Numbered from the stretch's first letter, positions 3,467 through 43,228 are shown. The stretch: 64,000 bases of DNA from Octopus vulgaris (GCA_951406725.2 OX597830.1:12152001-12216000), one strand, 5' to 3'. Notes: generated from the sequence alone by a model not told the origin. Numbers and translations are program-made.

Positions 3467-4528
3467 AGGGTGATATGTTGCTATTTGTTTGGTTTATTAA
3501 GAAGTGATTTTATTTTATGTTATGTATTGATAATTAATCAGCCCGTTGATAAGTATTTCCCTTGTAATTATTACTGGAAATGATATATATTGGATAGAAA
3601 TTTTTATGTTGTATATAGGTGAGGCATGTAGACTGAAAGTGAATGATAAATGATTGATGATTGATGCCATTTGTGTAAGTATGGTGGGGAGGGTTGGGGT
3701 TAAAGTTGAATGACTGTTGGTTGTTGAAAAGAAGAAAAGGTGTAGGATAGATAGATACATGTGTGTTGATAGACTGAATTTTGTTAAGGGATTTGTCAAC
3801 ACACTGTGGGAGGTGAACTGTTAGGAAGCTTTTGAATAAACAGTTTAGGGATGCATAGATCTCATGAAAGAAATGGATGAAGGCTTTACTGACGCTCAGC
3901 GAAACTATAATTTTCTTAATAGATCCAAAGTGTGTGAGCTAATGGGTCCATAGATTTCATTTTTTAAAATCTTAAAATAAACAGACTTTCCCCAACTAGG
4001 ATTATGTAAAGATATCAGATTAGCAGATTTGTACAACCTGAATAACCTTAAGACAGATGCGATTAGGAAACTACTAATAAACATATTTAACGAATAAAGT
4101 CTAAAAATAACTATGAACACTAATTTTTGAATCACAAAATCTTTAGACATTACATTAAGCTTGACTTCAGGTAACAATTAAGATATAGTTTATATAAACA
4201 ATGACTCTAACCATCTTGTCACAGTTATTAAAATATAAAGATGCATTCAATCTATTCTCCAATAGGAATATATTCAGTTGAGCTGTACTCTTCTATAATG
4301 ATGTATGAAGAAGAAACAACTACAAAGAAAAATAAAATGGAAATCTCACAAAACTGTAGAGCTAAGAAAAGAAGTGTGATGCAATTTATCCCTAGTCCTA
4401 AACATAAGTGTAGGTTCTAATTTAGGACTTACTTTCTTGTCCTTAATAAAATACATTTTCCTGTTACACATAAATATAATAATCTTTTCAATAAACATAT
4501 ACATACATATAATTGTATATACACATAT

Positions 4529-23350: not shown

Positions 23351-26078
23351 AGATAGTTACTGTCTACCAAATCCACTCTCTGAGCTTTAGTCAGCCCAGG
23401 CCTAGATTATAATCCTAGATTATAAGGGTGGAAGCAAATTTGACTCAGCTCCACATGGGCATTTAGGAGATGTACAACTCAGGTGTTTGAAACCTTACGT
23501 ACATATATGTATTGATATATGTATGTATGCATGTATGTGTATGTGTGTGTGTTTGTATATATACAGCATTATCATCATCATCATCATCATTTAACGTCCG
23601 CTTTCCATCTGGCATGGGTTGGATCGTTTGACAAGAGCTAGCAAGCCCAGAAGGTTATGCCAAGTTCTATTGTCTGTTTTGGCATGGTTTCTATGACTGG
23701 ATGCCTTTCCTAATATACACATAAATTCAAAATGCATATATTTATGTATGAAATTTTAAAAATATTGTACAGTTTTTGTGTAATTTTATTTTATGTACTC
23801 AAGTATTACTGCTCGCATAAAAGAAGCATTTGAATTGTCCTGTTTATTTCTCACTTGTTCTACTTTCTGTGTTCATATCCCATCAAAGTCAACTTTGCCC
23901 ACCACCTTTCCGGGTTTGCTAAATTTAAGTGCCACTGATTTAATTTACTCCAGTGTATATTGTCTCCTAGTGTTTTTCATGCATGTCACACCCAACGAGA
24001 TGTCTGAGCAAATATTTTAGGTGGCCACAACATTTGTGAGAGGAGGAACTACTCCCAGCTATTTTGAAACTACTCCCAGCTATATTGAAACACATAATGA
24101 TAGAATAACGCCACCCCAATCCTATACAGAAGGATGTTGTGCATTTGTGTGTACAAGTGCAAACTTTTAACAAATAGAAACTGAAGAAAAATGATTGCCC
24201 ATTGTGTAGGTGTATGCACCATCAAGCTATGCTTCCTGGTGTTTGGTGAGTCAACAAACATTTGTCCTGTGCTGTAGTACTTATTCCAGAGTGGCATAGA
24301 AGAAGTTTTGCTTGTGACTATTGGGCAGTGATGACCCCTTGGTGATACTGAGGCTACAATAAACATCTATTATGTTAATAGGAATTTATGAAACATATTT
24401 TCACTTCATTTATCAGTTAAGCTTTACAATAATTACATTACTTAAAATAAATTTTTATGCTAAAAACAAAAAAACAAATTGAAATATTTTTGTTGTTTCA
24501 ACAGATACATGCGTGTTTGTGTGTGTATGTGTGTGTGTGTGTGTGTGTGTATCAAACTATAAATCATTTGATAAAGTATATTTTTATTATTTTGAAAAAT
24601 TTTTATTAACAGTTGTTATAGTATTTTTTGACAAGTTGGATCTCATTGATAGTTATGTGCTTTTTCAAACTTTGCTTTATTTTTCAAAGAAGCAAAATAT
24701 AGGCAATTATCATTTCTTAATTTCTTTTAAATTCCCTTCAGAAAAAGCATGGAAAATTATTTTAATGAATCCTCTTTCAAATTAAAACAAAATCAATACT
24801 TACACTTAAAAATTATTACCAAATCAGTCTTCTAATTTTTAAAAATGTTTATTCTCTCTATAATACATTACCTAGTAGTATACTTGTCACAAATATCTAT
24901 CTATATAAGATACAAATTATAAGAAATAAAATTCTGTAAAAAACGGAAGACTATTTAGTTCATTTGGCTATACTTTTTTGGAAAAAAAAAAACTATATTA
25001 TATCACTTTTTTCATCCTCTTCAATACTATTAAAATTTTGAATGAACTAAAATATAAGCAGAAGGAGGGCAAATGGCTTTTAAAGCTGAGAGAGTATCAA
25101 AAGGTGTTGCTTTTGGCAGCAAAATTGACTTTTTCCTAGATTTGGCCTAGAGCATGGTATAGTAGGTACTCTAACATTGCTTTTATGGCTCTTTGAGAGA
25201 GTTGGCCAAAGACAGGGCTACTTGTATATCAATTAAAATCATCTTAATAAAAGAAGCAGGAAGGTAGTTGAATGCATGTGGCCCTCTCTAGATGGCTGGC
25301 TGTCTGTTAAATGGCTATTAACCCTAACCATACCTTAGATTATGCTACCTTTTCATTTCACATCTATTCATTCCAGGTCACTGTGTTTCATATATTTATG
25401 GTTACACCTTGCAAAACTTAACATTTTTTTGTGGAAAGTAATGTAAATAAATTCATCGATTTTTACATTCATGTACATATATTTGAACCATAATGAAATT
25501 AAGATAACTGATTAAAAAGTAAATTGACTTCACATCTCACTATTCTACCGTAATGATTATAAAAAGTCATTTAGTACTTACATTTAATATTTTAGATATT
25601 ATGTGTTAAAATCTTGACTTTAGCTAAATTACTGTTCTTCAGTTTATTTTTATACATCATTTGTACTTCCCACAAGAAGCTCTTAAGTTTTGTTTGACTT
25701 TCCAAGCTTCAGCACGGATGGTATTCCCGTTCCAAGTGCTAAATTGATTTAATTTCTTACTAAATTCTTATGTTGCTTTTGTTTTTGTTCTATCCTCCTA
25801 TCAACATGTTTTAAATACTTTCTTGATGTGAACACCACTGGCCGTTATTTTTCATAGAACATCTTATTTTATTTCAACTTTAATTTACTTGTGCTTATCT
25901 TTTAAACCCCACTTGATCATGTTGCATCATATTCTGTACTGCTGCTGCTGCTGACCAATCATCTGGTGTCTATTGCAGATGTATGTTTCTTATGTAGTTA
26001 CTAACATTTGTGTCCTGTGTAGTTGCACTTCGTTTTGTCTTTGTCTAATACTGATCTCCCTCTCCCATTTTTCTACAG

Positions 26079-26331
26079 CATGGAAATGCATAAGAATTTG
26101 ACCCTTGACCCGGCCTCAACCCCAACAACCACGTCCTTGACCTCTGTTCAGTCCCATCATCCCTTGGCCATCCCGCTGAATCAGTTGGTGAAACCAATGC
26201 CGTATTTAAATGTCCCAGGTGTATTCGACCTGAATAATGATCGCAAACATTTTACGGCCAAAATGCGGGTTGGGGTGACGGCTAATAGTGCATTGAAGAA
26301 AGTGGAACGAGCAAAATTTGCACCTTACTAA
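26079..26331 (+). CDS. PCBP: Alternative terminal coding exon of a PCBP/mub-family KH-domain RNA-binding protein: (S)MEMHKNLTLDP...SALKKVERAKFAPY*
   Basis: Strong acceptor ctccctctcccatttttctacAG (AG at 26077-26078) with an upstream ctaat branch-like motif. GC-richer open frame of about 84 codons entering in phase 2. The start (SMEMHKNL) and the basic-rich K/R-F-x-PY end resemble, from memory, the long C-terminal isoform of Drosophila mub (SVELQKANL...RKFNPY). No search was run. Confidence 0.8.
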
Positions 26332-26842
26332 TGTTGAAATACCACATCTACTTCTACTAAGACTTTCTAGTTCACTTGAAATGGAGTCATCCAAGATTTT
26401 CCTATGTGTGAAGACAACTATATTTATTGACAGACATTATAGAAGAAAAATGGAAAAGATTACAGTAATTGAAGAGGATGTTATTTGTCTAATATCCACA
26501 AATTTACTAGCTGAGGTCTATATTTTGTAGAAAGATATGTGCAAGATGCCAAAAATTTTTTTCTGTAAATGTGTAAAAAGTGAAATAATGATGGAATGAA
26601 GTGATAATAATAAGATATCATGTTTTGGTTTACCTACAATGGACATTTTAACAATGTAGGCCCATCTCCAACATTCCAATTATGTTGTCAGTCAGAGTAC
26701 TTTTCCTTACCAACCTTTATACCAATGCATTTTCAATATTCATTTATTTACTTCCATTATGTTTAATCACCTAATAAATTTGATTATTATGCTTTTTAGT
26801 TTATCATTTTGATTGATATTGTTACCACGGCTACCATTTTTG

Positions 26843-26845
26843 TTA

Positions 26846-26926
<81 letters not shown>

Positions 26927-27058
26927 CATTATTATTATTATTTATTGTTGCTGTTGTTATTGTTGTTGTTATTGTTGTTGTTATTATTATCCTCCTCATC
27001 ATCATCATCGCCATTGTCATCATCGCCATCGTCATCATCATCATCATCATCATTATTA

Positions 27059-27089
<31 letters not shown>

Positions 27090-27104
27090 AATTATTATTA
27101 TTAC

Positions 27105-27146
<42 letters not shown>

Positions 27147-27160
27147 CATCATCATCGTTA
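26843..27160. repeat. (TTA)n/(TTG)n/(ATC)n compound trinucleotide repeat between the two PCBP terminal exons
   Basis: Direct inspection. Confidence 0.95.
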
Positions 27161-27583
27161 TTCACTATTTTTATTTCATAGTTTTTGTAACATTGATATT
27201 TCAATAAAAGAAATGAATATTGAAATATATTATATTAGCATGTAGTTTGCACATTTTAAACTGGTGAATTTGTCTAGTACTTACTCAGTTGGCATGAGTT
27301 TTTAAAGAATAAATTACATTTTTACAGTATATAATCAACATACAAAACTTATTTTAATTAGAGCTATCTCCATTTTAACAAAAATTCTATGGATCATTTT
27401 AATATCTCATATCTATTTAAACTGACTGAACAACAAATTTGTGGAGATACCCTGGTATTTGTTTTCCTTGTTGATGTCCATTTTTCTTTTACTTTTTACT
27501 TTCATGTCACTTATGATTCTATTCCAAAGAAATTCTCTCTGCAGTTGCCCTGCAGCCTGAAGCGTGATTTTGTGTCTTTGTAG

Positions 27584-27620
27584 GATAACAACAGAAGTTT
27601 GTGGAATGGGAATTCGCTAG
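27584..27620 (+). CDS. PCBP: Alternative terminal coding exon of PCBP: (R)ITTEVCGMGIR*
   Basis: Acceptor ttttgtgtctttgtAG (27582-27583), same phase 2 as the 26079 exon. The peptide matches the vertebrate PCBP C-terminus after KH3 (recalled: PCBP3 ARLTSEVTGMGTL*, PCBP1 ARLSSEKGMGCS*). Confidence 0.8.
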
Positions 27621-28926
27621 GTAGATGACGTTTGGACCATTTAAATATCGAGATCACGAAAAGCCACTACAGCAATCTGATCTACTGTTATTCATAATGT
27701 TTATGTCTTATTTCATACATTTTCACGTGCTTGATCATGTGTACATTTAGTTAATCATTGTGTTTACCTACAACTATTTTCCACTGTGTTCTGTGTGAGC
27801 TACTGCGTTTGAGCACTAACCAAAATTTGTGGTGATGTTGGAATGTTTACCCTATCAAGTAGAAGTTTAGTTGCACCTATTTCTTAAAATATCCTGCAGT
27901 TAGAGTGGAGCGCTCAACCTTAATGTTGGCCAATATTTCACTCATCTAAATACTTAAGTCTCTGTGTGCTAGTGTGTGTGTATGTGATTTGCATGTTTGC
28001 ATACTTATCAACTTACCTTTCTAACCTTTTAGATAATATATCAATTCATATAGTAACTGAGTTGTTATTAAAACTGATGAACTTATCTGAATACATGATA
28101 CATCTACATTTATGCAGATGTATCCATGTATATACCTTTAGGTAATGATATAAATAAAGTGATAAATAAAATAAAGTAATAAATTAAATAATGTAATAAA
28201 TTTTCAATCAAATTTGCAATTGTAAAACTTAAGTCTCCAATACTTTATATTTTAATTTTATTTTCTGAGGTACTACTTTGATAATTTTATATAAAAAAAT
28301 ATCTGTGGTGTTTATTATGAAAAAATCAAATTGACTAATGAACAGAACTAGAATTTAAAATGTTCCTATATTGATAATCTAAATCCCATTTTTGTTACTA
28401 GTTACTCGGAGAAATCTTATACAATTATAAGTAGCAAATGAGGTGTATTATGATGACAAGTGTTCATAAATATTGATATCTACTTAAATACATAAATATA
28501 TATTGTGTACAAACATATACACACATACACACCACTCACACACACATTATCTATAAAATTAACCTCTACATATGTGCAGTTTCTTATGTGTAAACACAGA
28601 CCAGAGTTTGCCTTGCTTGCTATTTTATAGTATCAAATATTTTAGAAAATTTACATCATGTAATAATACATGTTGTAATAGAAGTAGTTCATTATAGTAA
28701 AAAATGTTTGCTTCTAAAACATACATTATTTTTATTGCAAGATTAATATCAGAAATCAAAGCATCTTATATCATAGTTCATCACATATGTCCTAAATATA
28801 AGTATATAGAAATTAGTTTACCTATATGTTGCTCTATAGTTATTCATAAATACTTTATTTACATACACATATTTGCATACATATGAATATATACATGCAC
28901 ATACACACACACACAGAGCAGATGTG

Positions 28927-28971
<45 letters not shown>

Positions 28972-29530
28972 ATTTGTGTGTGTGAGTATATATATATATA
29001 TATATATACATATATGTATGTATAGTCAGTCGATTCAAGGATAATTAGGGATTGATAAATCCGAAATTTCACTGGTTTAAGCTCCATCACATTAGAAGAG
29101 AGTTTCTACATTGTGTTATGGATTATAATAGGTAAAATTAATAATATAAGAAAATGGAGAGTTAAAAATGTATATTTAATTTATTTGCGACATAGTTTGT
29201 TTTTAAGAAATAAATATAAATAAAACCCTGAAGTGACTCTACAGCTTACAGCTTAAATACTTAACATTGGATTTAACTCAAATGTTTTGAATTATGTATT
29301 ACCGACGGGCTAGAATCGAAATATATGTAGGCTTCTGAGTCTTCTAGTGTGTTTTTAAAAATTTTATTTGTATTTATATCTTAAAAACAAACTGTGATGC
29401 AAATAAATTAAATATACATCTTTAACTCTCCATTTTCTTATATCACTAATTTTACATATACATACGTGTGTGAGTGTGTATATATATATATATTAATGCA
29501 TATATGTGTATATATATATATTTATGTATT

Positions 29531-29569
<39 letters not shown>

Positions 29570-29602
29570 TTATGTATATATATACATATATATGTGTGTA
29601 TT

Positions 29603-29648
<46 letters not shown>

Positions 29649-32600
29649 ATTATGTATATATGTATGCATGCATATATATAGATGTATATGTGTGTATATA
29701 ATATATATATGCTCTTGACAATTTTATACTAATGATGTAGACACATAAAAATATAGGTAGATTTGTTCATGCTACCCAGTTATTTTACTATTAGAAAATA
29801 GTCTAGATTTACAAGTTCAACCAAAATAACTCTAAACTAATAAATCACTCTTATTATTCTTTATGTATGACTATTTTAATTTGGCTAAAAGTGTGTGCCA
29901 TTCTATGATGAAATATGCTTAAACATATCGCTCATAATTCATGCATACAATTAAAATGGTGATCTCATTTAACCATTTGTACAAATATACATACAACGAA
30001 ATGTCTCTTGGACTTTAGTTTTCCTTAAACTATCACCGTTGTCAGGTGAAGTGAGACAGTACATTGATAGTGTATATAAATGATTGCAACTTTATTCTAT
30101 TTCTGTTAGAGACAATTTATATTTATATATTACTTCATGTGTGTAAATGTTTATCTCTTCTGATGTACACACACACATCATACCAAATCTCTCACATTCA
30201 TGTGTTGTATATATCAGGGTTTATTTCTTGGGGTTTCTTGATTCATTAATGAAATGTTTTCCAACAGCTGAGTCCATTTTAAATGGAAAATAAAAATCTA
30301 AAAATTCTTACATCTATTTAAAAACGTAAATGGCTTATTTTCTATTATTCTTTTCTATGATCAAGCTGTGCCAGATTTAAATCAGATTGCTGTTGAAATG
30401 TAAGCGACCAAAGAGACTAAAAACAAAAAAATTATTTAAAACTTTCTACAATTCGGTATTGTGTTGATAGATGATTTCTTTGTCAGCTCTTTATTTCTTG
30501 TGGCTGGGGTATGTTAATTAAAGTTATTTGCGAAGAAAGAAAAAAACAGCAAACAAACAAAAAAGAACAAAGATCATTTACTTTTCTTTGAGGATATCAC
30601 TTATAGAAAATATCTAATAGTTAAAATTGAATCTATTTGATGAATAACTGTAAACTAAAATTGAATTTATGATACTGATAAATACAGTATTATTTTTATA
30701 TTATAATTTGATGGGAGGAGCAAATTTTGTACTATTTCTTTAATTTTTGTAGTTTTTGCAAAATTAATTTGATAGTACTAGATGATATTTTCAGATTTAG
30801 TAGTATGAAATAAAATAAATTCAAAATGGTAAACATACCATTTCATTCCTTGTTGTAAATAAAGGGATGTAAATTAACTGTCAATAATATTTTGTTTTTT
30901 GTCTTCTCAAAAAGCATTCCTGTAAAGCACTTGTAACTACACCTTGATATCAATCACCATTTCATAATATTGTGAATGTAAACAAAAAACTTTTATCTTT
31001 TTTAACATAAAATAATATTTCAGCTCAAAATATATTTAGTTTGAAAATTAATTAATTATTGGAGTCATGGGCCAATACTTATCTTTAAAAAATATTGATT
31101 ATAAATATTTCTATTGTTAAAACTATTAGTTACCTGTGTAAATTTGACAACTTACGTTTGATAAAGCATGGTGCACCACAGTCCTTTTGATCTCTTAGAA
31201 GAAGCTACATGTGAACAATCAAAACTGAGGTATTTCTTTTGAATTCTATAATCTTCAAGGAATATATTATTTAAAAATTTAGGTTTATATCCATTTGAAC
31301 TATCTGCACTGTAGTTGCCTAATGGTTGTGTGGTTTGTAAATTTCTAGTTGGTTCTTCTTGGTAAAGAATGATTAAAATAAATTCTTTTACTCTTCAAAA
31401 GTCTTCTTATTTATCTGATAGTAGTAGTTTAAAATTTGAACATTTGCTCAACTTATTTTTCCATTCTGTCTTCCTTAAAAATGTATAAATTCTTTCTTGT
31501 AAAAATTTGTTTCAAAAATAAATTATCAGTATGGTTGTTAAGAATGGATGTTATAAAACAAGAAAGATTATAAATAAAATATTGAGAAGATTATTTTTTT
31601 ATCTTTGTGCCAAATATGGGATGTATTTGTTATTTTGATGTATGAATTTTGCAAATAATTTATCCCAAGTAGATCATATTGACTATTTTATACATTTTAG
31701 AATTTCTATAATAATTATCAACTTAAAATTTGATATCGCACACTTGAAATGTGTTGATTCATGTAAGCAATAAATCTATTCAATCTAACGGTAGCAAGGA
31801 AAAAAAATTAAGACTTCTGAGTTTTAAAAAGTTTTATCACTTTTATTTTGTCTTATTGCTTTCTAATTGTGATACCTTTGTGTGATATCTTTGTGATATT
31901 TTGTTATGTCAAGTGTTGTCTGTTGCATTTCTTGTCTGCATTGTTAAATTTAGTTAATATTGTTTGTACTATATGCAAAAATCCATGTAGTAGCTATAGA
32001 AGTAGTAAATATTCAGTTTGACAAAAAAATTACCATTATGAATGGGCTCAGCTCTCATTAATACTTAACAAAAATGTGTGCTCAGCAACAATTGCATTAT
32101 TTTTTAAATTGCAGTCTATCAACATTTTTATTCTCTTTCTCATTAAATTACAGTTCATATATTTTGTTGTATGTTCTCCTTTTTAGTGTTGTCCATTTAC
32201 TTCATAATTTACATTTCAGAATAGTATGTAATATTACTACTCTGAGAGTATTCAGTTTTCTTTTAAATTTATTGTTGTTAATAACATTATTTTTGCACTG
32301 TCTTATGAGAGTGATCTTTGGTTATTTATTGGCTCCATTTGGCAGAGAAATACAGAGTTAAAGTATTAATTAAAGAAATTGTTATTGCTGGAAATAAAAC
32401 TACAAGTAACGTGATGGACAGAAATATCAATTTTCAATGACAGATTATGTTAAGATATGTTTTGTTTTCCCAGAACAGAAAATATCACTTTACAAAAAAA
32501 AAGTAAATCAATAAATAAATACAGAAAAAAGAAAAAAAAAAGAAAAAGAAAAGAGCAACAAAAAACAAAAAAAGCTGTCAAAAAAAAACAAAAACAAAAC

Positions 32601-33400
32601 TATAAATATTATATTCTTCAAGTTGGGATAAATAGTCTATTCAAATGTTTATCAGGTTGATGATAGTAATGATGCTGATGGTTGTGGTAGTAGTCGTGAT
32701 GTTGGTGAAGAGGATGATAACAATGATAATTATGTTGAAGACTAATAAAAAAAATTAGTTATCAATACTAACTACATATATTTACATTATATTTTTTGCC
32801 TGTAAGTTTTTTTTTTTGTCTTTCATCATTAAAATTCTATAAAGATCCCTCACTAATGGAAACAAAATTTGGCTTTGAAAGACTATCAAAATGTTTTCTC
32901 TCCATTTTAATGATCACATAATGCTTAATAAACATAAAACAAAAACTAAATGTGAGTTGTAAATCACCACAAATGTACAGCTATCAATGTAAATTGTGCA
33001 AAACACTGTTCCTGAATATCTTTTTTGTGTCTTCTGAAATAGATTCTTCTATCAAAATCTCAGAAAATAATTTTATTGGTTAACTTTCCATTATGTACTT
33101 TTATTATTTATATTAAGGAATGAAATAGGTATTCACTTTCAAATTTTCACATTTTTCTCTAATTATAATTTTTGTAATTGTATTTTACATAAAATGTATT
33201 TTGATATTTTATACTTATTTATGGAAATTGAAACATGAAATATTCTCTGCTTGTGTATTCAAGAAATTCAATTGGTTAAATGAGATCCTGTGATAATTCA
33301 TGAGCCAATGAAAATCTATGCATTGCACTTCGCCTTAGAAGCACCAGCTCTTTTACAATATTTTTTTCTCTTAAGCTAGTTTGCTGCATTATGCCTTATG
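27621..33400 (+). other. Probable long 3' UTR or constrained intronic region of PCBP
   Basis: Almost free of SINEs and LINEs compared with the flanks, and U-rich on the + strand. AATAAA cluster at about 28150-28185, further AATAAA near 31770 and 32927. TGCATG and ACTAAC motifs present. Boundaries are approximate. Confidence 0.4.
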
Positions 33401-33544
33401 ATGAGGGAGTAAAGTCATACCAAGGAGTCAAAATAGGATAGAACTAGGTACTCTCACCTTATATTAGATAAATTCAAATTAAGTACTTACCTATTTGACT
33501 ATATTACATATATAAACCTTCAAGTCTAACTTTGTACTGTTGTA

Positions 33545-33566
33545 AGCATATGTACATATATATATG

Positions 33567-33608
<42 letters not shown>

Positions 33609-33723
33609 CATACATATTTGTATGTGTGTATGTATATATACATACATGCATGAATCTCTGTGTATGCATATATATATATATATGTACATAATGTATGTAT
33701 ATGTAAACCATACTAATATCATA

Positions 33724-33761
<38 letters not shown>

Positions 33762-33819
33762 CATGTATGTATATATGTATTTGTATATATATATATGTAA
33801 AACATATAATATCATAGGT

Positions 33820-33850
<31 letters not shown>

Positions 33851-34077
33851 GTATATATATGTATATATGTAAAACATATAAAACATCATAGGTTCATAGG
33901 TATGATATGCTCCATGCTTGAAAAGCTTGGTACTCTCAGCAACTTTTGTAACTTTCGGCCAATTAAATATATGTATTCCCATGCATTCGGGTCAGTTCCT
34001 TCTCTCAAACCTATATTGTATCTTACACACACACACACACACACATACACACACACATATATATGTATATGTGTATT

Positions 34078-34114
<37 letters not shown>

Positions 34115-34292
34115 GTTTATCAAATTAAATATACAATAGAAAGAGCTACTAATAGTTTCATGCTATTATGATACTTGAGCAGACATATATATAAAATAAT
34201 GTGCCATGTATCTTAAAGCAGTCTTTCAGGCTCCGTTTATCTATTTTATATATATATGTTTATATATACATATATATATATATATATGAACC

Positions 34293-34325
<33 letters not shown>

Positions 34326-34605
34326 GTGTGATTGTGTGTATATATATATTATAACAATGGTCCTTCGCACAATTTCCATCGAGCAAATTTCAACCAGGAG
34401 CTAATGGTCAAGTGGAGGCTATGGCACAGTTTATGCACTGGGATTGAATTCCAAACTAGTTATCCATGTCTCTATTGACGTATATGTGTGTGTGTGTGTG
34501 TGTGTATGTGTATATATATATGTATATATATGTGTGTGTATGTGTATATGTGTGTATGTGTATGTGTATGTGTGTGCATGTGGATATATATGCATACACA
34601 CACAT

Positions 34606-34656
<51 letters not shown>

Positions 34657-34836
34657 AGAGAAATGGGACAAAGGAAGAGTGAGAGAGTGAGAATATACAT
34701 ACATATATATATTTGTATATATGATATAAATATATATTGTATATATAATTATTGTTTAAATATTATGTATTTGTTTAGTGAAAGCATGATACAATCAGTG
34801 AATTTATCCTTGAGTCTGAGTGATGGTAGTAGTAAT

Positions 34837-34882
<46 letters not shown>

Positions 34883-34979
34883 TATACACATATATGTGTG
34901 TATACATATTTAATATATATTTATACATTGCGTACATATATATATATATATTGAATGTATATATATTTATATACACATA

Positions 34980-35026
<47 letters not shown>

Positions 35027-35135
35027 TTATATATGCATGTGTATATATATATGTGTGTGTAGACATATACATGTATGTATTTATGTGTATGCACATACAC
35101 ACACACACACACACAAATATGTATATATATTGTAC
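33545..35135. repeat. Extended TA/TG/CA microsatellite-rich block
   Basis: Direct inspection. Confidence 0.9.
34142..34234 (-). ncRNA. Hammerhead-like motif with variant core CUGAAAGA and long stem II
   Basis: Minus strand reads GGAGC-CUGAAAGA-(long stem with UGCU/AGCA and GAUAC/GUAUC)-GAAA-CUAUUAG-UA-GCUCU. A related copy lies at 46376-46453. Confidence 0.4.
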
Positions 35136-35730
35136 CTAAGTGTAGCTGTGTGAGCAGTGCTTGTAAAAATTTTATTAAACATTGTAAACATTTTATTAAA
35201 CCAATTCATATTCAAGACCTCAAAATTCATAAAACTCTTCATAAATTGTCATAGTTTTAAAAATTAAATTTCGTATACTTTTTGTTTTTGTATGGAAAAT
35301 CAAAGTGAAAGAGAAAAAATTATATTCTTAAGTGTTGTAACTGAATATGACAAATAGATATCCGATATCCATACTCACAAATGTTTTTGTAGTAGGGTGC
35401 TTTGCTGTGAATAACGTTTGTTATATTTGTGTTTGTTTTATAATACATGTATATTATTTCAACATTGTTTGAGATTCTGGTGAATTTATAAAAAAGCAGA
35501 TATGATTATACAGTAGTTATATATTTTAACATATTCTATTATTTTAATAAAGTTACATGTTTATTTTTTATTAATGTTTGGTCCCTAATCTATAAACTCT
35601 ATCGATCTAGATCTGTTATATAGGAAATTTTAAAAGTTTATTGGAAAATTAGCAGTAATCTACCTTATCTTTGACTCTACTAATCATTAAAATTATATCT
35701 AATTAACTTGGATCATAATATCGGTGCTGT

Positions 35731-35810
<80 letters not shown>

Positions 35811-35845
35811 GGATATGTGTGTTTGTGTGTGTGTGAGTGTGTATG

Positions 35846-35891
<46 letters not shown>

Positions 35892-35952
35892 TATATATAT
35901 GAACATAAATTCTATCATCTTTTAAAATATCATTTTTTCTTTTCTTTAATAG

Positions 35953-35965
35953 GTTATGGCTTTGA
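35953..35965 (+). CDS. Candidate alternative terminal exon: (R)LWL*
   Basis: Strong acceptor cattttttctttctttaatAG|G (35951-35952), followed by about 2.5 kb of repeat-free UTR-like sequence. The peptide is too short to verify by homology. Confidence 0.4.
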
Positions 35966-37170
35966 TCTTGTGCAATTATGACAAATTGTTAAATAATGGG
36001 GGTTGTGAACATTTCAGCTTGTTCTTTCCTTCTAAGGACTAACATCAGCTGATGTACATCTTTTGAACCAAGTTTGTGCCTTTTTGCAATGCATTCCTTT
36101 TTCTAGTAGATTGATTGTCAATTGACGACAGCACTGCATGTGCAATAAAGACACAAGCCCTATCAAAGCAAACATACCTTTACAAATATAACTTATTTTT
36201 ATAAAACAATTTGAAATCAAGAATAGAGTTAAAATTATAATGGATTTCTATTAGAAACATTGATCTCTTGAAGAATGTTGAAGATTTTTCATTTTGAAAA
36301 CCACTGACAATCCAGAGAAAATTTCATTAAAATTTTCTGAAATGGACAGTGCTCATCTTGCTGTCAACTAGTATAGAAACTGGTATTCAGACTGCTATTA
36401 AACATACGAATTATTTAATATTTATTAAAGTTCAGAAAAATGTTCAGTTTTGTCAATACTATATTTTGTCTTCAGAAATCATTATTGAATAATCATATTA
36501 GTAAAAAGAAAAGAAAAAAAAAGAAAGCAAAAATGTGTAAAAGGAAAGCAATAGAGAGCCTAAATGTTGTTCAAGTCATGATTACTCTACATTCATTCAA
36601 ATACCAAAATTAACTTAGTGATGTTTCTAAGCAAAGAAGTTAACTGGAGTTTCATAAATGAAAACAAAAGTCATTAAGAAGTCTTATTCCTTTTTATTAG
36701 TTTACAATATCTTTTATTTATAAGATATTTATACTTTAAAGTTTGGGACTTGAAAATTATTTAGCAATCATTGATTTGAATTTAATTTTTAATACCTGTT
36801 TTCAATAGTTTAGAAATTGACTTTCCTTCTGTACCTTTTCTAAAGAGAACTAGTCAAAATTTAAAATAAGGATGCCACTGTTTCAATAACTGTGGCCTTT
36901 ACAAATGTTGTGTGTTCCTACTTTACACTTTTAGACATCATGAATGCTTGTGACCATCAGTTTTTATTTGTATCCTGCACTAACTTTTATTTTAACTTTT
37001 GGTCCTAATAATTTACTTTCTTCAAACAATAATATTTAAATCATAATCTGTTGTTATACCATTTCATATAATTTTTAAAAACCTATTTTAATTGTTATTT
37101 ATATTTCTGGTCTGCACAGTTATTTTCATTATTTTTTACTGCATTGTTGCATGTGGAATTTGACTATTAG

Positions 37171-37264
37171 GTTGGAGCTATGCCACTCTCAATCTGCCTT
37201 GTCTTGCTGTTGTGCATGTGATCAAGCACATTGTCATGCCACATGCAGACACATTTTTTGTTAA
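37171..37264 (+). CDS. Candidate alternative terminal exon: (R)LELCHSQSALSCCCACDQAHCHATCRHIFC*
   Basis: TAG|G at 37168-37171 opens a 31-codon phase-2 frame in a GC-richer island. The pyrimidine tract is weak. The region takes part in long-range complementarity (see findings). Confidence 0.3.
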
Positions 37265-39579
37265 AAGAGCTACATTTAACTGGTCATTTCACAAAATACA
37301 TTTTAATACAAATTCTTACATAAACATATAACTGTAAAGCCATATAAAAACAAAAGAATAAAAAAAAAATCATGTAAAGTTTTTTTAAAAAATTAAATTA
37401 ATATTTAATCTTTTTTTATATATATCCTTTTGAGTAGAGGTATATTTAATTATCTAAAACATTCTATAGCAGTATTTAAAAAATAACAAATATAAATGAT
37501 CTCAGCAAAATTTCATTTGACTTTCTACACCTTAAAATGAAAATTGCACTAAATATCTTTCTAATTAATATTAACAGCTATGATATTATAATCTATTATA
37601 GTTAATTAAATCTAATGCTGTATATGACAATAATATCATGGTAAGATTTTATTTCATAATTTTAAATCCAATTATATGAACAGTTGTGTATTAAGATTTT
37701 CTAAAATAAAATTGATATTTTAATTTAAATTTTGCAATTAATTGCATTACAAATGATTATACAATCCAGAATATATTGTATGATATCCAGATATTTAAAT
37801 AACTGGAATTAGATGCTACAAGATTATTGCTCCCATATAAAAGAAAATTATTATTTTAAAATCTTTATTCATACACATGATATGTATTTAAATTTTTATT
37901 ATGATTATATTATGGATTTTAAAGTAGATAAAGTTTTTTTTTCTTTTTGTCTGAGATTTATATTTCATAAGTATTTTATTTTAAGGAAAAATAATTTTTG
38001 TCTCAAAATAATTTTTTCCAAAAGTGTTTTACCAAATTTATTAATTTTTTTTAATATAATCTCAAATATTTTTGTTCATTTTAATGAAATGTATTATTTC
38101 TTTTCCTTAAACTATAAACATTTTCTGAAATGCTTTAGTAGATTGATGATAAATAGTGTACAAAATGTTTATATAGCTCAGGTATGTTATATTAGTTAAA
38201 AGTAAATTTTGGTTTCAAATATTTAGATTAAAATTATTCACCAAAATACCAGTATTATTATGTAAAAGATTATTATTTAATTTTTTATTATTCTAAGTTA
38301 ATGTTCAGGTATTTTTTATAGCTAAATATGAATGTGTTAGTTTTTGTTTTGAAAAGCAAAGCTAGAATAATTATTGTGATTTCTCTGTATTATTATTTTG
38401 AATGAATTAAATTTAACGAAAAGTGCAAATTCATATAGTATTTATTTAAACATTCTGGATATAAATACACAGGTATATAATTATATTTATGCACACTATT
38501 ATCAATAAATATATAATGGAAATGATGCAATATGTGTGTGTGTGTGTGTATGTATTATTGAGATAATATACTATTGGTTATGATATATAACTATTCAGAA
38601 TGTTACCATCAGTTTTGTGTTCAATATTGATGACTATTCCAACATTCTGGCTGGAAGTGCATAGTCTCAGTAGGCTAGCGTTATATACACCTGGCCAACC
38701 TGTCTTTAGAGTTGCTAATATTGTCCTGTAGTAAGGTAGCGAGTGAGCTGCCAGAATTGTTACTGTGCTGGACAAAATGCTTAGCAGCATTTCTTCCAAC
38801 CTTGTGTTCCGAGGTGGACTTTGCCTTTCTTCCTTTCAGGGTTAAGATAAGCACCAGTTGAACACTGGGGTTTATGTAATCTACTTAGCCCCACTCCTGT
38901 AATTGGTGGCTTTGTGTGAAAATTTGAAACCAATATTTGGTGAGAAACTGATGGCAACATTCAGACCAATAATATCCCATAGCCAGTAATAAATATATTG
39001 TTTGAGGATATAAAAATATATATCTGTCCTATAATGTTGAGTGTGCTTTTATTTCTGACATATGGACTAACTGGAAATACATAGAAACTTACATATATAC
39101 ATACTATGTATGTACATACATACATGCATACATACATACATATATACATACACATACATACATACATATATATATATACATATATATATATATGTACATA
39201 TATGTGTATGTATACATACACATATATTTATGTATGTGTGTGTATATGTATATATATATATCACATGCACACACACACACACACATATAGTGCTGTATCA
39301 TGCAAACATTCTAATATAGTAACTGAATAATGGTGGTATGAAAAATTGTTTTCTATTTAGCAATGTAAGGTGTTTTCATTTTGTATGTTTTTGTTCAGAA
39401 TTTTAGTTTTATATGGTTTATTTCCTGTCTATACACATATGTAAGTGTGCATGTATGTATTTATGTATGTACATACATATGTGTGTGTGTTGTTGGCCAA
39501 TGATCCAGAGAACAAGTATTCAGTATAAATTTGGAATGCAACAGATTAAGCTAATCAAGTGGCCTGTTACACTGGAGTT

Positions 39580-39901
39580 GTGAGGGCGCGTGGCTTAGTG
39601 GTTAGGGCATTCGGCTCATGATCGTAAGGTTGTGAGTTCGATTCCCGGCGACGCGTTGTGTCCTTGAGCAAGACACTTTATTTCACGTTGCTCCAGTCCA
39701 CTCAGCTGGCAAAAATGAGTTGTACTTGTATTTCAAAGGGTCAGCCTTGTCACTCTCTGTGTCACGCTGATTATCCCCGAGAACTACGTTAAGGGTACAC
39801 GTGTCTGTGGAATGCTCAGCCATTTGCACGTTAATTTCACGAGCAAGCTGTTCCGTTGACCGTATCAGATGAGACCCTCGTCGTCGTAACCGGCAGAGTC
39901 T
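39580..39901 (+). mobile_element. Full-length tRNA-derived SINE with 13-bp TSD
   Basis: A box tggcttagtgg, B box agttcgattcc, body tgtgtccttgagcaagacact. TSD TTACACTGGAGTT at 39567-39579 and 39902-39914. Confidence 0.85.
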
Positions 39902-40548
39902 TTACACTGGAGTTACCATGGCATTCCACTGCTTCTTCAGAAATGTCAAACTGTTACCACTGTAGAAACTCCAGAGCAAGAAACCATTAGATCAGCTTAA
40001 ATAAACAAAAAAACACTACAGGTGTTTGTGTGTATGTGTGTATGTGTGTATGTGAGTGCGTGTGTGTGTGTATGTATGTATGTGTGTGTATATATATATA
40101 ATTTTATTTATGCGCCCTTTTCAAGCCTAGGTTCATGGGCCCGGTTTCCTGGTTTCTGTGGCGTATGTATTCCCCCCAGCTGGATGGGATGACAGTCCAT
40201 CACAGCATTACTCAAGAAACAGGAAGAGAGAGTGAGAGAAAGTTGATGCTGTTGACACTGTTGGATGATGTGGTGTTGCTTTTGATGCTGAAACCATGAA
40301 GATCCTCGAACAAGCAGCTGAAGATAGTGTATTATATTTTTATATAGCGTCTGCTTTTTTTCTTTTACATTGTTGTCTCTATTCTTTGTCACTGTTGATA
40401 GTTCCACAACTAATTTCAGAGATTTTGTTGTTTCATCCAAGGGGTTGTTAGAGTATTGTCAAGAAGCTGTTTGTGATGGGTGATAGATTTTTGTAAGGAT
40501 AGTTTTGTTTGGGGCTTTTCTTGTTTATAACAGATGCGAGGTATATAC

Positions 40549-40579
<31 letters not shown>

Positions 40580-40638
40580 TGTATATTTGTATATATCCAT
40601 ATATATATATTTTGAAAACAGCTTTTTATATCCCCACT

Positions 40639-40674
<36 letters not shown>

Positions 40675-41162
40675 TTGTATGCATATTTATGAGGTTAAAT
40701 GCAAATGAGCTAAGTGAAATAATGCTAATTGTTCTGTGGCATGGATATATACAGCAAAAGCAAATAATGGTAGAAATACTAAAATACTATACAATGAGAT
40801 TCTTGATTTATTGAAATTATTTTTTCTTAGAGAGAAGAATAAGCAAATGTCTTTTTGCCAGCCATGACTCATTGTAAATGAAATGGGAAAAATAATCTAA
40901 AGATTCAAGAATCCTTCAAAATTGATATGCCATTAAGGAGAGGACACTCTGTCTAGAGGAAATATGTAGGCACTGTTAAAGGTGTCATGATGACAGCAGT
41001 CATCAAATCCAGCAGATGAAATACTTAGACAAATACAAAAAGAACGGAACATATTTATGGCTTATGTTAATATTCATGATGCAAGTGAAATGTGCTAAGA
41101 GAAATAACTCAGAGTGGCATGGATATAAACAATGAAGACAAAAAGAGTTATATATAGATATA

Positions 41163-41366
41163 TTTTTTCTTTACATGTTTCAGTCATTTGACTGCGGCCA
41201 TGCTGGAGCAACGCCTTTAATCGAGCAACTCTACCCCGGGACTTATTCTTTGTAAGCCCAGTACTAATTCTATTGGTCTCTTTTGCCGAACCGCTAAGTG
41301 ACGGGGACGTAAACACACCAGCATCGGTTGTCAAGCAATGCTAGGGGGACAAACACAGACACACAA

Positions 41367-41405
<39 letters not shown>

Positions 41406-41564
41406 ACGGGCTTCTTTCAGTTTCCGTCTACCAAATCCACTCACAAGGTTTTGGTCGGCCCGAGGCTATAGTAGAAGACACTTGCCCAAGGTGCCATGCA
41501 CTGGGACTGAACCTGGAATCATGTGGTTGGTAAACAAGCTACTTACCACACAGCCACTCCTGCG
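41163..41564 (-). mobile_element. SINE family A
   Basis: Reverse complement of the 8931 element. Confidence 0.9.
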
Positions 41565-43228
41565 GCGAATATATTTTCAAATAAGAATTAGGTTCATTCT
41601 TTCATTACCCATATAATGATGCATATTTCCAGTTTTTTAAACATTTAACAAACAAAAGACAAGTTTCTCTCTCTGCATTTGATACTTGTTTATTACAGGT
41701 AATTTTTATCCCCTTAACTTCTCTCTGTGAGAAGTGATTCGGAATTGAATCTGCTACTCAGAGTCTCACAAGAATATGTTCAGCTTATAATCACTCAAAT
41801 AACAACAGATGAGCTGGCAATCAGATAATTTATCCACTGGTCATTTTGCTAATACAAAGAGAAACAATTAAAAATTACTTTAATTAAAATGTTATTTAGA
41901 TTGCAAAACAAAACTTTCATATTCTCATGTTTGAAAAATATATCAGTTTATATATATACATGCACACACATATATATGTCACTGTATGCATATATATCTA
42001 TATCTACATATATATATATATATACATACATACAAGTGTGTATTTGTGTGTGTATTTTCAAACTACCTCATTTGTTATGAAGAAAGCACTTCTTTAATCT
42101 TAGTTTTATTAATTATTGGCTATATATGGCAATCTATAAAATCCTAATAACCCTTTAATTTTTCATTGTGGTATGTGCAATATCAAAACATTATCTTCTC
42201 TGCTTTTCTATAGATTACATTCTGATAAAAGTAATTTTATTTTCATTAATATATATTTTTTATTATGGTGAGTTTTTTTTTTATAATACAGTAACTTTGA
42301 GAAATAAATCTGTGATCCAGTTTTGTTTCCCATTTGAAATTTCTTTAATTATGTTATTAATGCCTCTCAGAGAGGCATTAACATCAGAAATTCCCATATT
42401 CCACTTTTTATTTTTTATTATTTTCAAAAATCTATATTAAGTGTAAATTGTACTTTACATTTAGTTCTATGACCTGAGATTGCTAGTTCTGAAATGAAAA
42501 TGTGTCTGCTTGGCAAATTACTGGAAGTTGATTGAATCATGATGTATTTGTTACAAGGAGAGTTATTTTGATTGTTTCCATTTATTCTGAATATTTCTAT
42601 TACTGGTCCTGGAGCACTGCAAAGATAACAATTAAGTGTAAATCAGACAGCTATATGAATGTACTGCCAAAGATGGAATAAATTTTGATTATTTATCAAC
42701 AATATCCTATTTTTTGAAATTTATTTAAAAAAATTTATGTTTAATTCATTGAGAAAATTTCACTCTTCAAAAAAAGTGCAAATAGGCCCAAATGTGCCAC
42801 CTGTTTTAAAGCCATCAGCCCAGCATTGAAGATAACATGATTTGACATGCTCATTCTGACTGTATTTTTCCTTGTGTAGTGTCACTCTTAGTCAGAAGAT
42901 ATAAGTGGAAAAGACTACATAGTGGATACCAAAGGCCAGAGAGGACCAGGATGCAGCTACATTGGTAACGCCTTAATAAACTGCTCTATTAATTGATAGC
43001 CATGCATTCCTTCTTTTCCTTCAGAAAGCACAAAATTCCAAGACACTCACTGCAACCACCAACTTCTTATAGACATCAAAGTGGCAGTTTCCAATGACTC
43101 CTGATTTCTAGTTTCATTTACCTCTTTAATAAAGAATTACACAAATAAGAAAGTGCTGCAACTCTGGAATTAAAAGAAATCTTCTTGATAATTCTCCCTC
43201 CCCTATGCTAACATTTATGCACTATAAA

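What the first reader, a model, noticed from the sequence alone, without database searches (positions are those of the whole stretch)
27896..37197. Second, nested long-range helix that covers the candidate 37171 splice acceptor
Seen: 27896-27941 is complementary to 37153-37197 in collinear blocks separated by small bulges: GCAG/CUGC, UU/AA, AGAGUGG/CCACUCU, GCUC/GAGC, AACCU/AGGUU, AAU/AUU, GUUGG/UUGAC and AUUUCAC/GUGGAAU (about 38 bp by hand count). It nests directly inside the 27727:37229 helix, so two independent segments of the sequence 3' of the GMGIR exon zip onto one 80-nt target. The helix buries the UAG|G at 37168-37171. Inference: it masks that acceptor, or forms an ADAR editing duplex, and loops out about 9 kb.
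Basis: partly seen in the sequence, partly recalled or inferred. Interest (0 to 1): 0.75.

Follow-up and report, generated by a model that had tools for sequence, protein, structure and literature searches.

The report
Octopus PCBP3 3′ UTR fold-back helix
In an octopus RNA-binding-protein gene, two nested stretches just after a stop codon can pair with RNA about 9 kb downstream, near where the transcript appears to end, which could fold a very long untranslated tail back on itself; the proposed hidden splice site there shows no sign of use.

Summary
The complementarity is real: 27896-27941 pairs with 37153-37197 (35 bp in the ViennaRNA co-fold, 33 Watson-Crick), nested inside a stronger 19-bp helix (27727:37229). 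It beats shuffles in Watson-Crick alignments (0-69 of 5000) but is borderline in energy (p 0.05-0.11), and local hairpins compete with it. The locus is the 3′ end of Octopus PCBP3, whose last KH exon splices to at least nine alternative last exons; eight are placed here. The 37171 site is weaker than all eight, is in none of 23 RefSeq isoform labels seen, and is bridged unspliced and unchanged by a contig from one probable RNA run. That contig ends at about 37368, beside poly(A)-signal-like hexamers. The paired arms therefore sit 107 nt after the GMGIR stop and 139 nt before the apparent 3′ end. Best reading (0.45): a fold-back that compacts a ~9.7-kb 3′ UTR, like Staufen-type UTR-spanning duplexes and engineered anti-NMD fold-backs. 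Main functional rival: an Nmnat-like loop hiding minor acceptors 32346 and 35953. The 3′ arms are conserved with O. bimaculoides. Covariation and continuity of the UTR middle were not shown. Masking 37171 and ADAR editing are unsupported.

The parts
26079..26331 (+). PCBP3 alternative last exon A, coding part (S-MEMHK...KFAPY, stop TAA)
   Evidence: 100% match to O. bimaculoides/O. sinensis PCBP3 C-terminus; acceptor cag|C
27545..27560 (+). Minor alternative last-exon acceptor giving S-CPAA-stop
   Evidence: O. sinensis isoform X7, P0071
27584..27620 (+). PCBP3 alternative last exon B, coding part (R-ITTEVCGMGIR, stop TAG 27618-27620)
   Evidence: Identical tail in Octopus isoforms P0088 and P0095; same or near-identical tail in abalone, limpet and bivalves
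27727..27757 (+). 5′ arm of the outer helix (19-bp core 27727-27745, 16 Watson-Crick + 3 G-U)
   Evidence: Unique best partner both ways in 64 kb; strongest ungapped helix, -28.6 vs next -15.6
27779..27884 (+). Spacer between the two 5′ arms, conserved in cuttlefish; contains a weak local hairpin (27805-27846)
   Evidence: Cuttlefish gene model P0011 translates homologous DNA, 80% and 65% identity in two pieces; folding of 27790-27860 z -0.75, not significant
27896..27941 (+). 5′ arm of the inner helix (the finding); can instead form local hairpin 27903-27943
28149..28200 (+). Cluster of AATAAA/TATAAA/ATTAAA hexamers, candidate proximal poly(A) signal inside the loop
   Evidence: use not tested
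32346..32361 (+). Minor alternative last-exon acceptor (R-EIQS-stop), inside the loop
   Evidence: RefSeq isoforms P0090, P0093
35953..35965 (+). Minor alternative last-exon acceptor (R-LWL-stop), inside the loop
   Evidence: RefSeq isoforms P0091, P0094; placed by eye and translated; bridged unspliced by an X4 contig
37153..37197 (+). 3′ arm of the inner helix (the finding); can instead form local hairpin 37168-37196
   Evidence: no amino-acid change against O. bimaculoides ORF P0056
37168..37171 (+). UAG|G, the proposed acceptor; weak, no sign of use
37200..37229 (+). 3′ arm of the outer helix
37343..37369 (+). TATAAA (37343), AATAAA (37357) and A-run; apparent distal 3′ end at about 37368
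   Evidence: X4 contig ends at 37368, next contig depth 8.7 vs 95.1 (one run, weak hint)
42880..42904 (+). Minor alternative last-exon acceptor downstream of the loop (S-VTLSQKI-stop)
43025..43097 (+). Minor alternative last-exon acceptor downstream of the loop (R-KHKI...-stop)
4266..4281 (+). Minor alternative last-exon acceptor upstream of exon A (R-NIFS-stop)
   Evidence: O. sinensis isoform X9, P0098

Best explanation
The inner helix is the second tier of one long-range clamp in the 3′ UTR of Octopus PCBP3. In long isoforms that use last exon B (or A) and the distal poly(A) site near 37368, the 19-bp outer helix nucleates the contact and the imperfect inner helix then zips inside it. An 80-nt segment near the 3′ end is held against the first 320 nt of the UTR and about 9.2 kb loops out. 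The stop codon then lies about 250 nt of unlooped RNA from the poly(A) tail instead of 9.7 kb. The likely result is a compact, stabilised mRNA (proper termination near PABP, escape from long-UTR decay, a site for a Staufen-type dsRNA binder), and possibly easier definition of a very long last exon. Shown: gene identity, exon map, complementarity, geometry, conservation of the 3′ arms within Octopus. Weakly shown: the 3′ end at 37368. Inferred: one continuous UTR across 28100-35905, pairing in vivo, any effect on stability.
For: Geometry: stop B to outer helix 107 nt, outer helix to 37368 139 nt, span/UTR 0.975. X4 contigs cover 35905-36125 and 36157-37368 without differences, bridge 35953 and 37171 unspliced, and stop at an A-run beside TATAAA/AATAAA; X4 also holds 0.89 of the words of 25600-28100. 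Arms are mutual best partners inside the putative UTR. The outer helix pairs far better on the + strand (-31.7 vs -19.9), as G-U pairs in RNA would give. Against O. bimaculoides, 0 of 57 codons change over 37151-37320 versus 4 of 24 in the KHKI exon (Fisher p 0.006; arms only 0 of 26, p 0.046). The spacer between the 5′ arms is conserved to cuttlefish. Precedent: a 26-nt engineered fold-back from about 50 nt after a stop to just before the poly(A) signal raised half-life from 2.59 to 7.74 h (PMC2689704, passages); STAU1 duplexes spanning whole 3′ UTRs correlate with low decay (PMC10164587, passages).
Against: The middle of the UTR (28100-35905) was not examined in reads. X4 holds intronic words upstream of exon A, so its contigs may be nascent RNA; it is one run, RNA only by guess, and the end lies in a genomic A-run where oligo-dT can prime. 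24 AATAAA hexamers lie inside the loop, so many transcripts may end before the 3′ arms exist. The inner helix is borderline in energy nulls and loses to local hairpins in several settings. Conservation runs on beyond the arms to 37320, so it may reflect the poly(A) region; synonymous changes are invisible in a protein comparison; no covariation could be counted. Long-UTR decay in molluscs is assumed, not shown.
Confidence: 0.45

Rival explanations
1. The outer helix may be functional, but the inner helix is chance or a decayed inverted copy that rarely forms; its arms stay in local hairpins.
For: Energy nulls p 0.05-0.11; equally good partners elsewhere in the 64 kb; pair probabilities down to 0.01-0.2 at 18 C or with wide flanks; many single-base bulges.
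Against: Watson-Crick collinearity beats nearly all shuffles and is top of 2128 windows in 4 of 5 schemes; it lies directly inside an independent unique helix; the 3′ arm is unchanged against O. bimaculoides.
Confidence: 0.22
2. Pre-mRNA loop-out as in Drosophila Nmnat: the clamp encloses the minor last-exon acceptors 32346 and 35953 and many poly(A) hexamers, lowers their use and shifts choice towards exon B with the distal poly(A) site, or towards acceptors 42880 and 43025.
For: Both acceptors lie inside the loop and are annotated in two Octopus species; 35953 has a strong tract (0.9) yet is read through in X4. In Nmnat the boxes surround the proximal acceptor of a terminal exon and box 2 lies upstream of its poly(A) signal (PMC2724269, passages).
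Against: The conserved acceptors A and B lie upstream, outside the loop, and are transcribed 9-11 kb before the 3′ arm, so they can be used before the helix exists (inference). All minor exons give nearly the same truncated protein.
Confidence: 0.2
3. The duplex is kept mainly as an ADAR substrate that edits adenosines in or next to the arms.
For: Squid editing is enriched in 3′ UTRs (PMC9068888, passages); a bulged duplex of 55-60 bp in total is a plausible substrate (own knowledge).
Against: X4 contig 36157-37368 shows 0 other letters. The same paper reports that most UTR editing sites overlap repeats; these arms are not tandem repeats.
Confidence: 0.08
4. One reading: the helix exists to mask a splice acceptor at 37171, either a further last exon (RLELCHSQ...) or the end of a 3′ UTR intron from a donor at 27621.
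For: The AG is paired; the gene does use many weak last-exon acceptors in this phase, and 37171 opens a 31-aa frame. Perfect masking would also give no junctions.
Against: Poorest tract of nine; 77.5% of 316 YAG sites in 23-39 kb are as good or better. Absent from 23 isoform labels. Bridged unspliced in X4. Paired in the local hairpin too.
Confidence: 0.05

Closest known systems
STAU1-bound long-range 3′ UTR duplexes with high compaction score (PMC10164587; passages seen)
   Same: Intramolecular duplex that spans nearly the whole 3′ UTR (span/UTR 0.975); the outer helix is a symmetric 19-bp stem.
   Different: The long-range peak there averages 252 nt, some reach kilobases; here 9.2-9.5 kb. 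The inner helix is bulged, a feature that paper links to weaker Staufen binding. No binding data here.
Engineered 3′ UTR fold-back that suppresses NMD (PMC2689704; abstract and passages seen)
   Same: [quoted passage not shown]
   Different: Natural, two-tiered and imperfect; 107 nt after the stop and 114-128 nt before the hexamers rather than about 50 nt and immediately adjacent; no decay data; mollusc rather than human cells.
Drosophila Nmnat intron 4 long-range stem (PMC2724269; passages seen)
   Same: Boxes surround alternative last-exon acceptor(s); the 3′ box lies upstream of a poly(A) signal; further acceptors lie downstream.
   Different: The Nmnat minigene spans about 1.2 kb and the stem decides between two real C-termini; here the two mollusc-wide last exons lie outside and upstream of a 9-kb loop.
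Docking site/selector pairing in 3′ variable regions: PGRP-LC, CG42235, Pip (PMC6191721; abstract and discussion seen)
   Same: Array of alternative 3′ exons after a common donor; long-range pairing nearby.
   Different: There each selector lies upstream of its exon and competes for one docking site. Here the two 5′ arms lie after exon B's stop and pair side by side without competing; the only selector-like copy (25912-25922) is weak.
Human pairs of conserved complementary regions, PCCRs (PMC8052449; passages seen)
   Same: Long-range pairing with candidate 3′ ends and alternative exons inside the loop.
   Different: PCCRs are defined by multi-species alignment, mostly in introns; here conservation is shown for the 3′ arms within Octopus only.

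Membership tests
PCBP/poly(rC)-binding protein 3 gene (host) | Exons match annotated PCBP3 proteins with KH domains | tested here: met
   Exon A 100% to Octopus PCBP3 with PF00013; exon B and six minor tails mapped. KH exons lie upstream of the window.
Conserved long-range RNA pairing (PCCR-like) | Complementarity beyond chance | tested here: met
   Outer helix unique in 64 kb; inner helix significant by Watson-Crick alignment, borderline by energy.
Conserved long-range RNA pairing (PCCR-like) | Both arms conserved across species | tested here: inconclusive
   3′ arms unchanged at protein-proxy level in O. bimaculoides; no second-species sequence of the 5′ arms; runs X19, X21 and X23 gave no listed piece over the arms.
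Conserved long-range RNA pairing (PCCR-like) | Compensatory substitutions | not testable with these tools
   No cephalopod genome is held; the searches gave no homologous arms.
UTR-spanning (Staufen-type) duplex / NMD fold-back | Both arms in one mature 3′ UTR, near its two ends | tested here: inconclusive
   X4 holds both ends and reads through 35953 and 37171; 28100-35905 not examined; 3′ end from one run.
UTR-spanning (Staufen-type) duplex / NMD fold-back | Binding of a dsRNA protein or an effect on half-life | not testable with these tools
   Needs hiCLIP-type or reporter data.
Splice-site-masking stem | The masked AG is a usable acceptor | tested here: not met
   Weak tract, absent from 23 isoform labels, bridged in X4; rare use not excluded.
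Nmnat-type loop-out of alternative last exons | Annotated alternative acceptors inside the loop and further acceptors downstream | tested here: met
   32346 and 35953 inside; 42880 and 43025 downstream.
Nmnat-type loop-out of alternative last exons | Acceptor use changes when the stem is broken | not testable with these tools
   Needs a minigene.
Docking site/selector system | Several selectors, one upstream of each exon, competing for one docking site | tested here: not met
   Only an 11-nt copy at 25912-25922, -18.6 vs about -33 kcal/mol, outside the top partners.
ADAR editing duplex | A-to-G differences in RNA over the arms | tested here: inconclusive
Rfam families | Match over either arm | tested here: not met
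   126 matches at E up to 1 in 24000-42000, none over 27700-27960 or 37140-37240.

The most novel reading that the evidence does not exclude
A natural, conserved, two-tier fold-back clamp closes a ~9.7-kb 3′ UTR almost end to end and sets the half-life of the exon-B PCBP3 mRNA by holding the poly(A) tail next to the stop codon. The inner tier, close in energy to two local hairpins and shifting between 18 and 37 C in the model, could make the clamp tunable, for example by temperature or RNA-binding proteins, in a cold-blooded nervous system. The same clamp could bridge acceptor B to the distal poly(A) signal so that a 9.8-kb last exon is read as about 280 nt.
Probability: 0.15. Interest if true: 0.75.

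Novelty: new member of a known kind. Interest (0 to 1): 0.45.

Why it matters
How very long 3′ UTRs avoid decay, and how very long last exons are recognised, are open questions; fold-back has been shown with engineered constructs (PMC2689704) and by correlation (PMC10164587). This locus offers short arms at the two ends of a ~9.7-kb UTR, so compensatory mutagenesis would test the idea directly. My searches found no paper on octopus PCBP3 (0 papers) and only one review holding all of NMD, PABPC1, long-range, loop out and UTR; the library lacks most subscription papers, so this does not show that nothing is in print. If the inner helix proves incidental, what remains is a good 19-bp long-range helix and an unusual array of alternative last exons.

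Tried and rejected
No whole genome is held for this window. KH-motif regex and tblastn found no KH exon in the window. The generic inverted-repeat search was swamped by TA repeats. Pfam gave 0 families for exon A; Rfam nothing over the arms. The metagenome scan gave 1 locus from 293 candidate stretches, L001, a distant animal PCBP at 64% identity whose contig ends about 1.6 kb after the exon A stop; I saw no arms in it by eye. No listed holder is on record as RNA. X19, X21 and X23 gave no listed piece over the 3′ arms, and X4 had no cover over about 37576-38550; holes prove nothing and are not used as evidence. Only 35905-39070 was laid, so exon B's possible donor at 27621 and editing of the 5′ arms remain untested. 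The frame through 37171 has one relative among 1.84 billion representatives and no further one among proteins of 31-100 aa, so no squid or cuttlefish 3′ arm came this way. A 21-nt conserved-spacer pattern found 0 matches in genome and viral contigs. The O. vulgaris transcript annotation in the supplement of PMC9699675 was too large to read; it may show the real UTR ends and junctions of this gene. The original hiCLIP paper was not held. Local folds of both arms and the spacer are no better than shuffles (z -0.98 to +0.92). A third nested helix 28070-28079:36955-36964 (10 bp, -10.1) and a partner for the conserved 27848-27882 segment do not stand out from background. A docking/selector reading was set aside. 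Earlier-finding look-ups by place and sequence returned nothing.


Full report
Verdict in brief. The nested helix is in the sequence and is probably not chance, but it is the weaker tier of a two-helix clamp, and the acceptor it covers shows no sign of use. The clamp joins the start of the 3′ UTR of Octopus PCBP3 exon B to the apparent far end of the transcript.

1. The observation. Co-folding 27700-27960 with 37140-37240 recovers both helices (MFE -95.3 kcal/mol; ensemble binding -23.7). Alone it gives -34.2 kcal/mol, reached by 2 of 5000 double shuffles of the exact arms, but that ignores the search space. With the search space included, energy nulls are weak: 167 and 115 of 1500 shuffles, 35 of 313 genomic windows and 10 of 197 co-fold shuffles did as well. 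Watson-Crick gapped alignment separates it better: 0 to 69 of 5000 shuffles over five scoring schemes and two shuffle types, and best of 2128 windows in 4 of 5 schemes. I ran the alignment test after seeing the weak energy result, so it is not a blind test. In the whole window each arm has one slightly better partner (16981; 19791), both upstream of exon A; within 27584-37368 the arms are each other's best partner by 4 and 7 kcal/mol. The outer helix is unique (-33.4 vs next -26.1) and strand-specific (-31.7 on +, -19.9 on -). Over 18 settings of flank and temperature, the outer helix stayed at probability 1.0 in 15 and fell to 0.25-0.88 in the widest flanks; the core of the inner helix ranged from 1.0 to 0.03 as local hairpins 27903-27943 and 37168-37196 took over. 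These are two-strand folds and leave out the cost of closing a 9-kb loop.

2. The gene. The ORF at 26080-26328 is 100% identical to the C-terminus of Octopus PCBP3. The window is closest to O. vulgaris: it matches a predicted O. vulgaris exon at 32656-32742 and differs from both O. sinensis and O. bimaculoides in the KHKI exon. The KH exons lie more than 26 kb upstream, outside the window. RefSeq isoforms join the common ...YLINT exon to nine different tails. Eight map here: 4266 (RNIFS), 26079 (exon A), 27545 (SCPAA), 27584 (exon B, RITTEVCGMGIR), 32346 (REIQS), 35953 (RLWL), 42880 (SVTLSQKI) and 43025 (RKHKI...); the RK tail has several candidate sites and is unplaced. Tails A and B recur in gastropods and bivalves; I saw the others only in Octopus. 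The GMGIR exon is thus a coding last exon ending in TAG at 27620, and both 5′ arms lie just after its stop.

3. The 37171 site. It is in the right phase and would give a 31-aa tail, but its pyrimidine fraction at -14..-5 is 0.5 against 0.7-1.0 for the eight annotated sites, and 77.5% of 316 YAG sites in 23-39 kb match or beat it at -20..-5. I saw O. sinensis X1-X12 and O. bimaculoides X1-X11; none carries the tail. On the common stem it would be about 391 aa and would fall between X3 (416) and X4 (375) of the length-ordered O. sinensis series, where there is no gap (ordering by length is recalled NCBI practice, consistent with the lengths seen; higher-numbered isoforms may exist). In run X4, a probable RNA run, one contig covers 36157-37368 with 0 other letters and 0 gaps, and the summed depth on both sides of 37171 equals that contig's 95.1, so no second contig joins there. 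Contigs drop rare forms, so low-level use is not excluded. The AG is paired in the local hairpin as well as in the long-range helix.

4. Where the transcript ends. In X4 a 240-nt contig bridges acceptor 35953 unspliced, the 1212-nt contig stops at 37368 in an A-run after TATAAA (37343) and AATAAA (37357), and the next contig (37364-37575) has depth 8.7. This is a weak hint of a 3′ end: one run, contig depths, possible internal priming. X4 also holds 0.89 of the words of 25600-28100, including intron upstream of exon A, so part of its content is unspliced. I did not examine 28100-35905, which holds 24 AATAAA hexamers, five of them clustered at 28153-28195. If the UTR is continuous it is 9748 nt; the outer helix starts 107 nt after the stop, ends 139 nt before 37368 and spans 0.975 of it.

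5. Conservation. An uncharacterised O. bimaculoides ORF, P0056, translates this DNA: 36 of 36 residues match 37151-37258 and, after a one-base shift in a T-run, 21 of 21 match 37258-37320. The KHKI tail differs at 4 of 24 residues between the same two species (Fisher p 0.006; for the 26 arm codons p 0.046). This shows constraint on the 3′ arms and on the 90 nt after them, blind to silent changes. A cuttlefish gene model translates DNA homologous to 27779-27884, between the 5′ arms, so this UTR start is conserved across coleoids, but neither 5′ arm itself was recovered from another species and covariation is untested.

6. Mechanism. Most likely (0.45) the outer helix nucleates and the inner helix extends a clamp that folds the long UTR back, bringing the poly(A) end to within about 250 nt of unlooped RNA of the stop. 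It would work like the engineered fold-back of PMC2689704 (abstract and passages) and resemble UTR-compacting STAU1 duplexes linked to low decay (PMC10164587, passages); membership of either kind is not shown. For exon A isoforms the stop would stay about 1.5 kb away, so any effect should be strongest for exon B. Rivals: inner helix incidental (0.22); Nmnat-type loop-out of acceptors 32346 and 35953 (0.2; PMC2724269, passages), which can coexist with the best reading; ADAR substrate (0.08; PMC9068888, passages; no differences in X4); masking of 37171 (0.05). Docking/selector control (PMC6191721, abstract and discussion) does not fit, because the two 5′ arms pair side by side rather than compete.

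7. Novelty. Long-range 3′ UTR and intronic duplexes are a known kind (PMC8052449, passages). No Rfam family covers the arms, and a search for octopus with PCBP3 found 0 papers. The span and the end-to-end placement are the unusual features. An earlier AI report on a myofilin stem reached a similar verdict for another gene; I did not check it and it is not evidence here. Interest 0.45; 0.75 if the tunable fold-back reading (probability 0.15) holds.

Noticed in passing
window 4266-43097: Octopus PCBP3 has an array of at least nine alternative last exons after one KH3 donor, spread over about 39 kb; seven give 2-24-aa tails seen only in Octopus and mainly change the 3′ UTR. Five of these are annotated in both O. 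sinensis and O. bimaculoides.
   Followed up: partly
window 25912-25922: Exact 11-nt copy of the core of the outer helix's 5′ arm, about 165 nt upstream of exon A's acceptor; the only match of 10 nt or more in the window; pairs with the same 3′ arm at -18.6 kcal/mol. Possible weak competing selector.
   Followed up: partly
window 25723-25734 with 27602-27613: 12-bp complementarity (-17.4 kcal/mol) between the intron upstream of exon A and the coding part of exon B; top helix of that comparison but close to the next (-16.0).
   Followed up: partly
window 27779-27884: Non-coding segment conserved between octopus and cuttlefish; the indels inferred from the cuttlefish translation appear to fall in the loop of or just outside the hairpin 27805-27846. 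No long-range partner found.
   Followed up: partly
window 27618-27626: Exon B's stop TAG is followed directly by GTAGAT, a possible donor; use not tested.
   Followed up: no
window 26269-26274 and 32656-32745: An O. vulgaris model (P0010) and cuttlefish models (P0011, P0012, P0058) splice out of exon A at the same KMR|V position into different downstream sequence; may be prediction artefacts or a real internal donor.
   Followed up: no
L001 2103-2424: A distant animal PCBP in a metagenome contig has the same KH3-exon to exon A junction (...YLINT, then S-MELHK...KFAPY) with an intron of only about 650 nt, so exon A is old and the octopus intron is greatly expanded.
   Followed up: no
window 38600-39070 and 39586-39655: High-copy interspersed repeat (hundreds of contigs laid at great depth) and a tRNA-like match below the Rfam threshold, probably SINE parts.
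   Followed up: no
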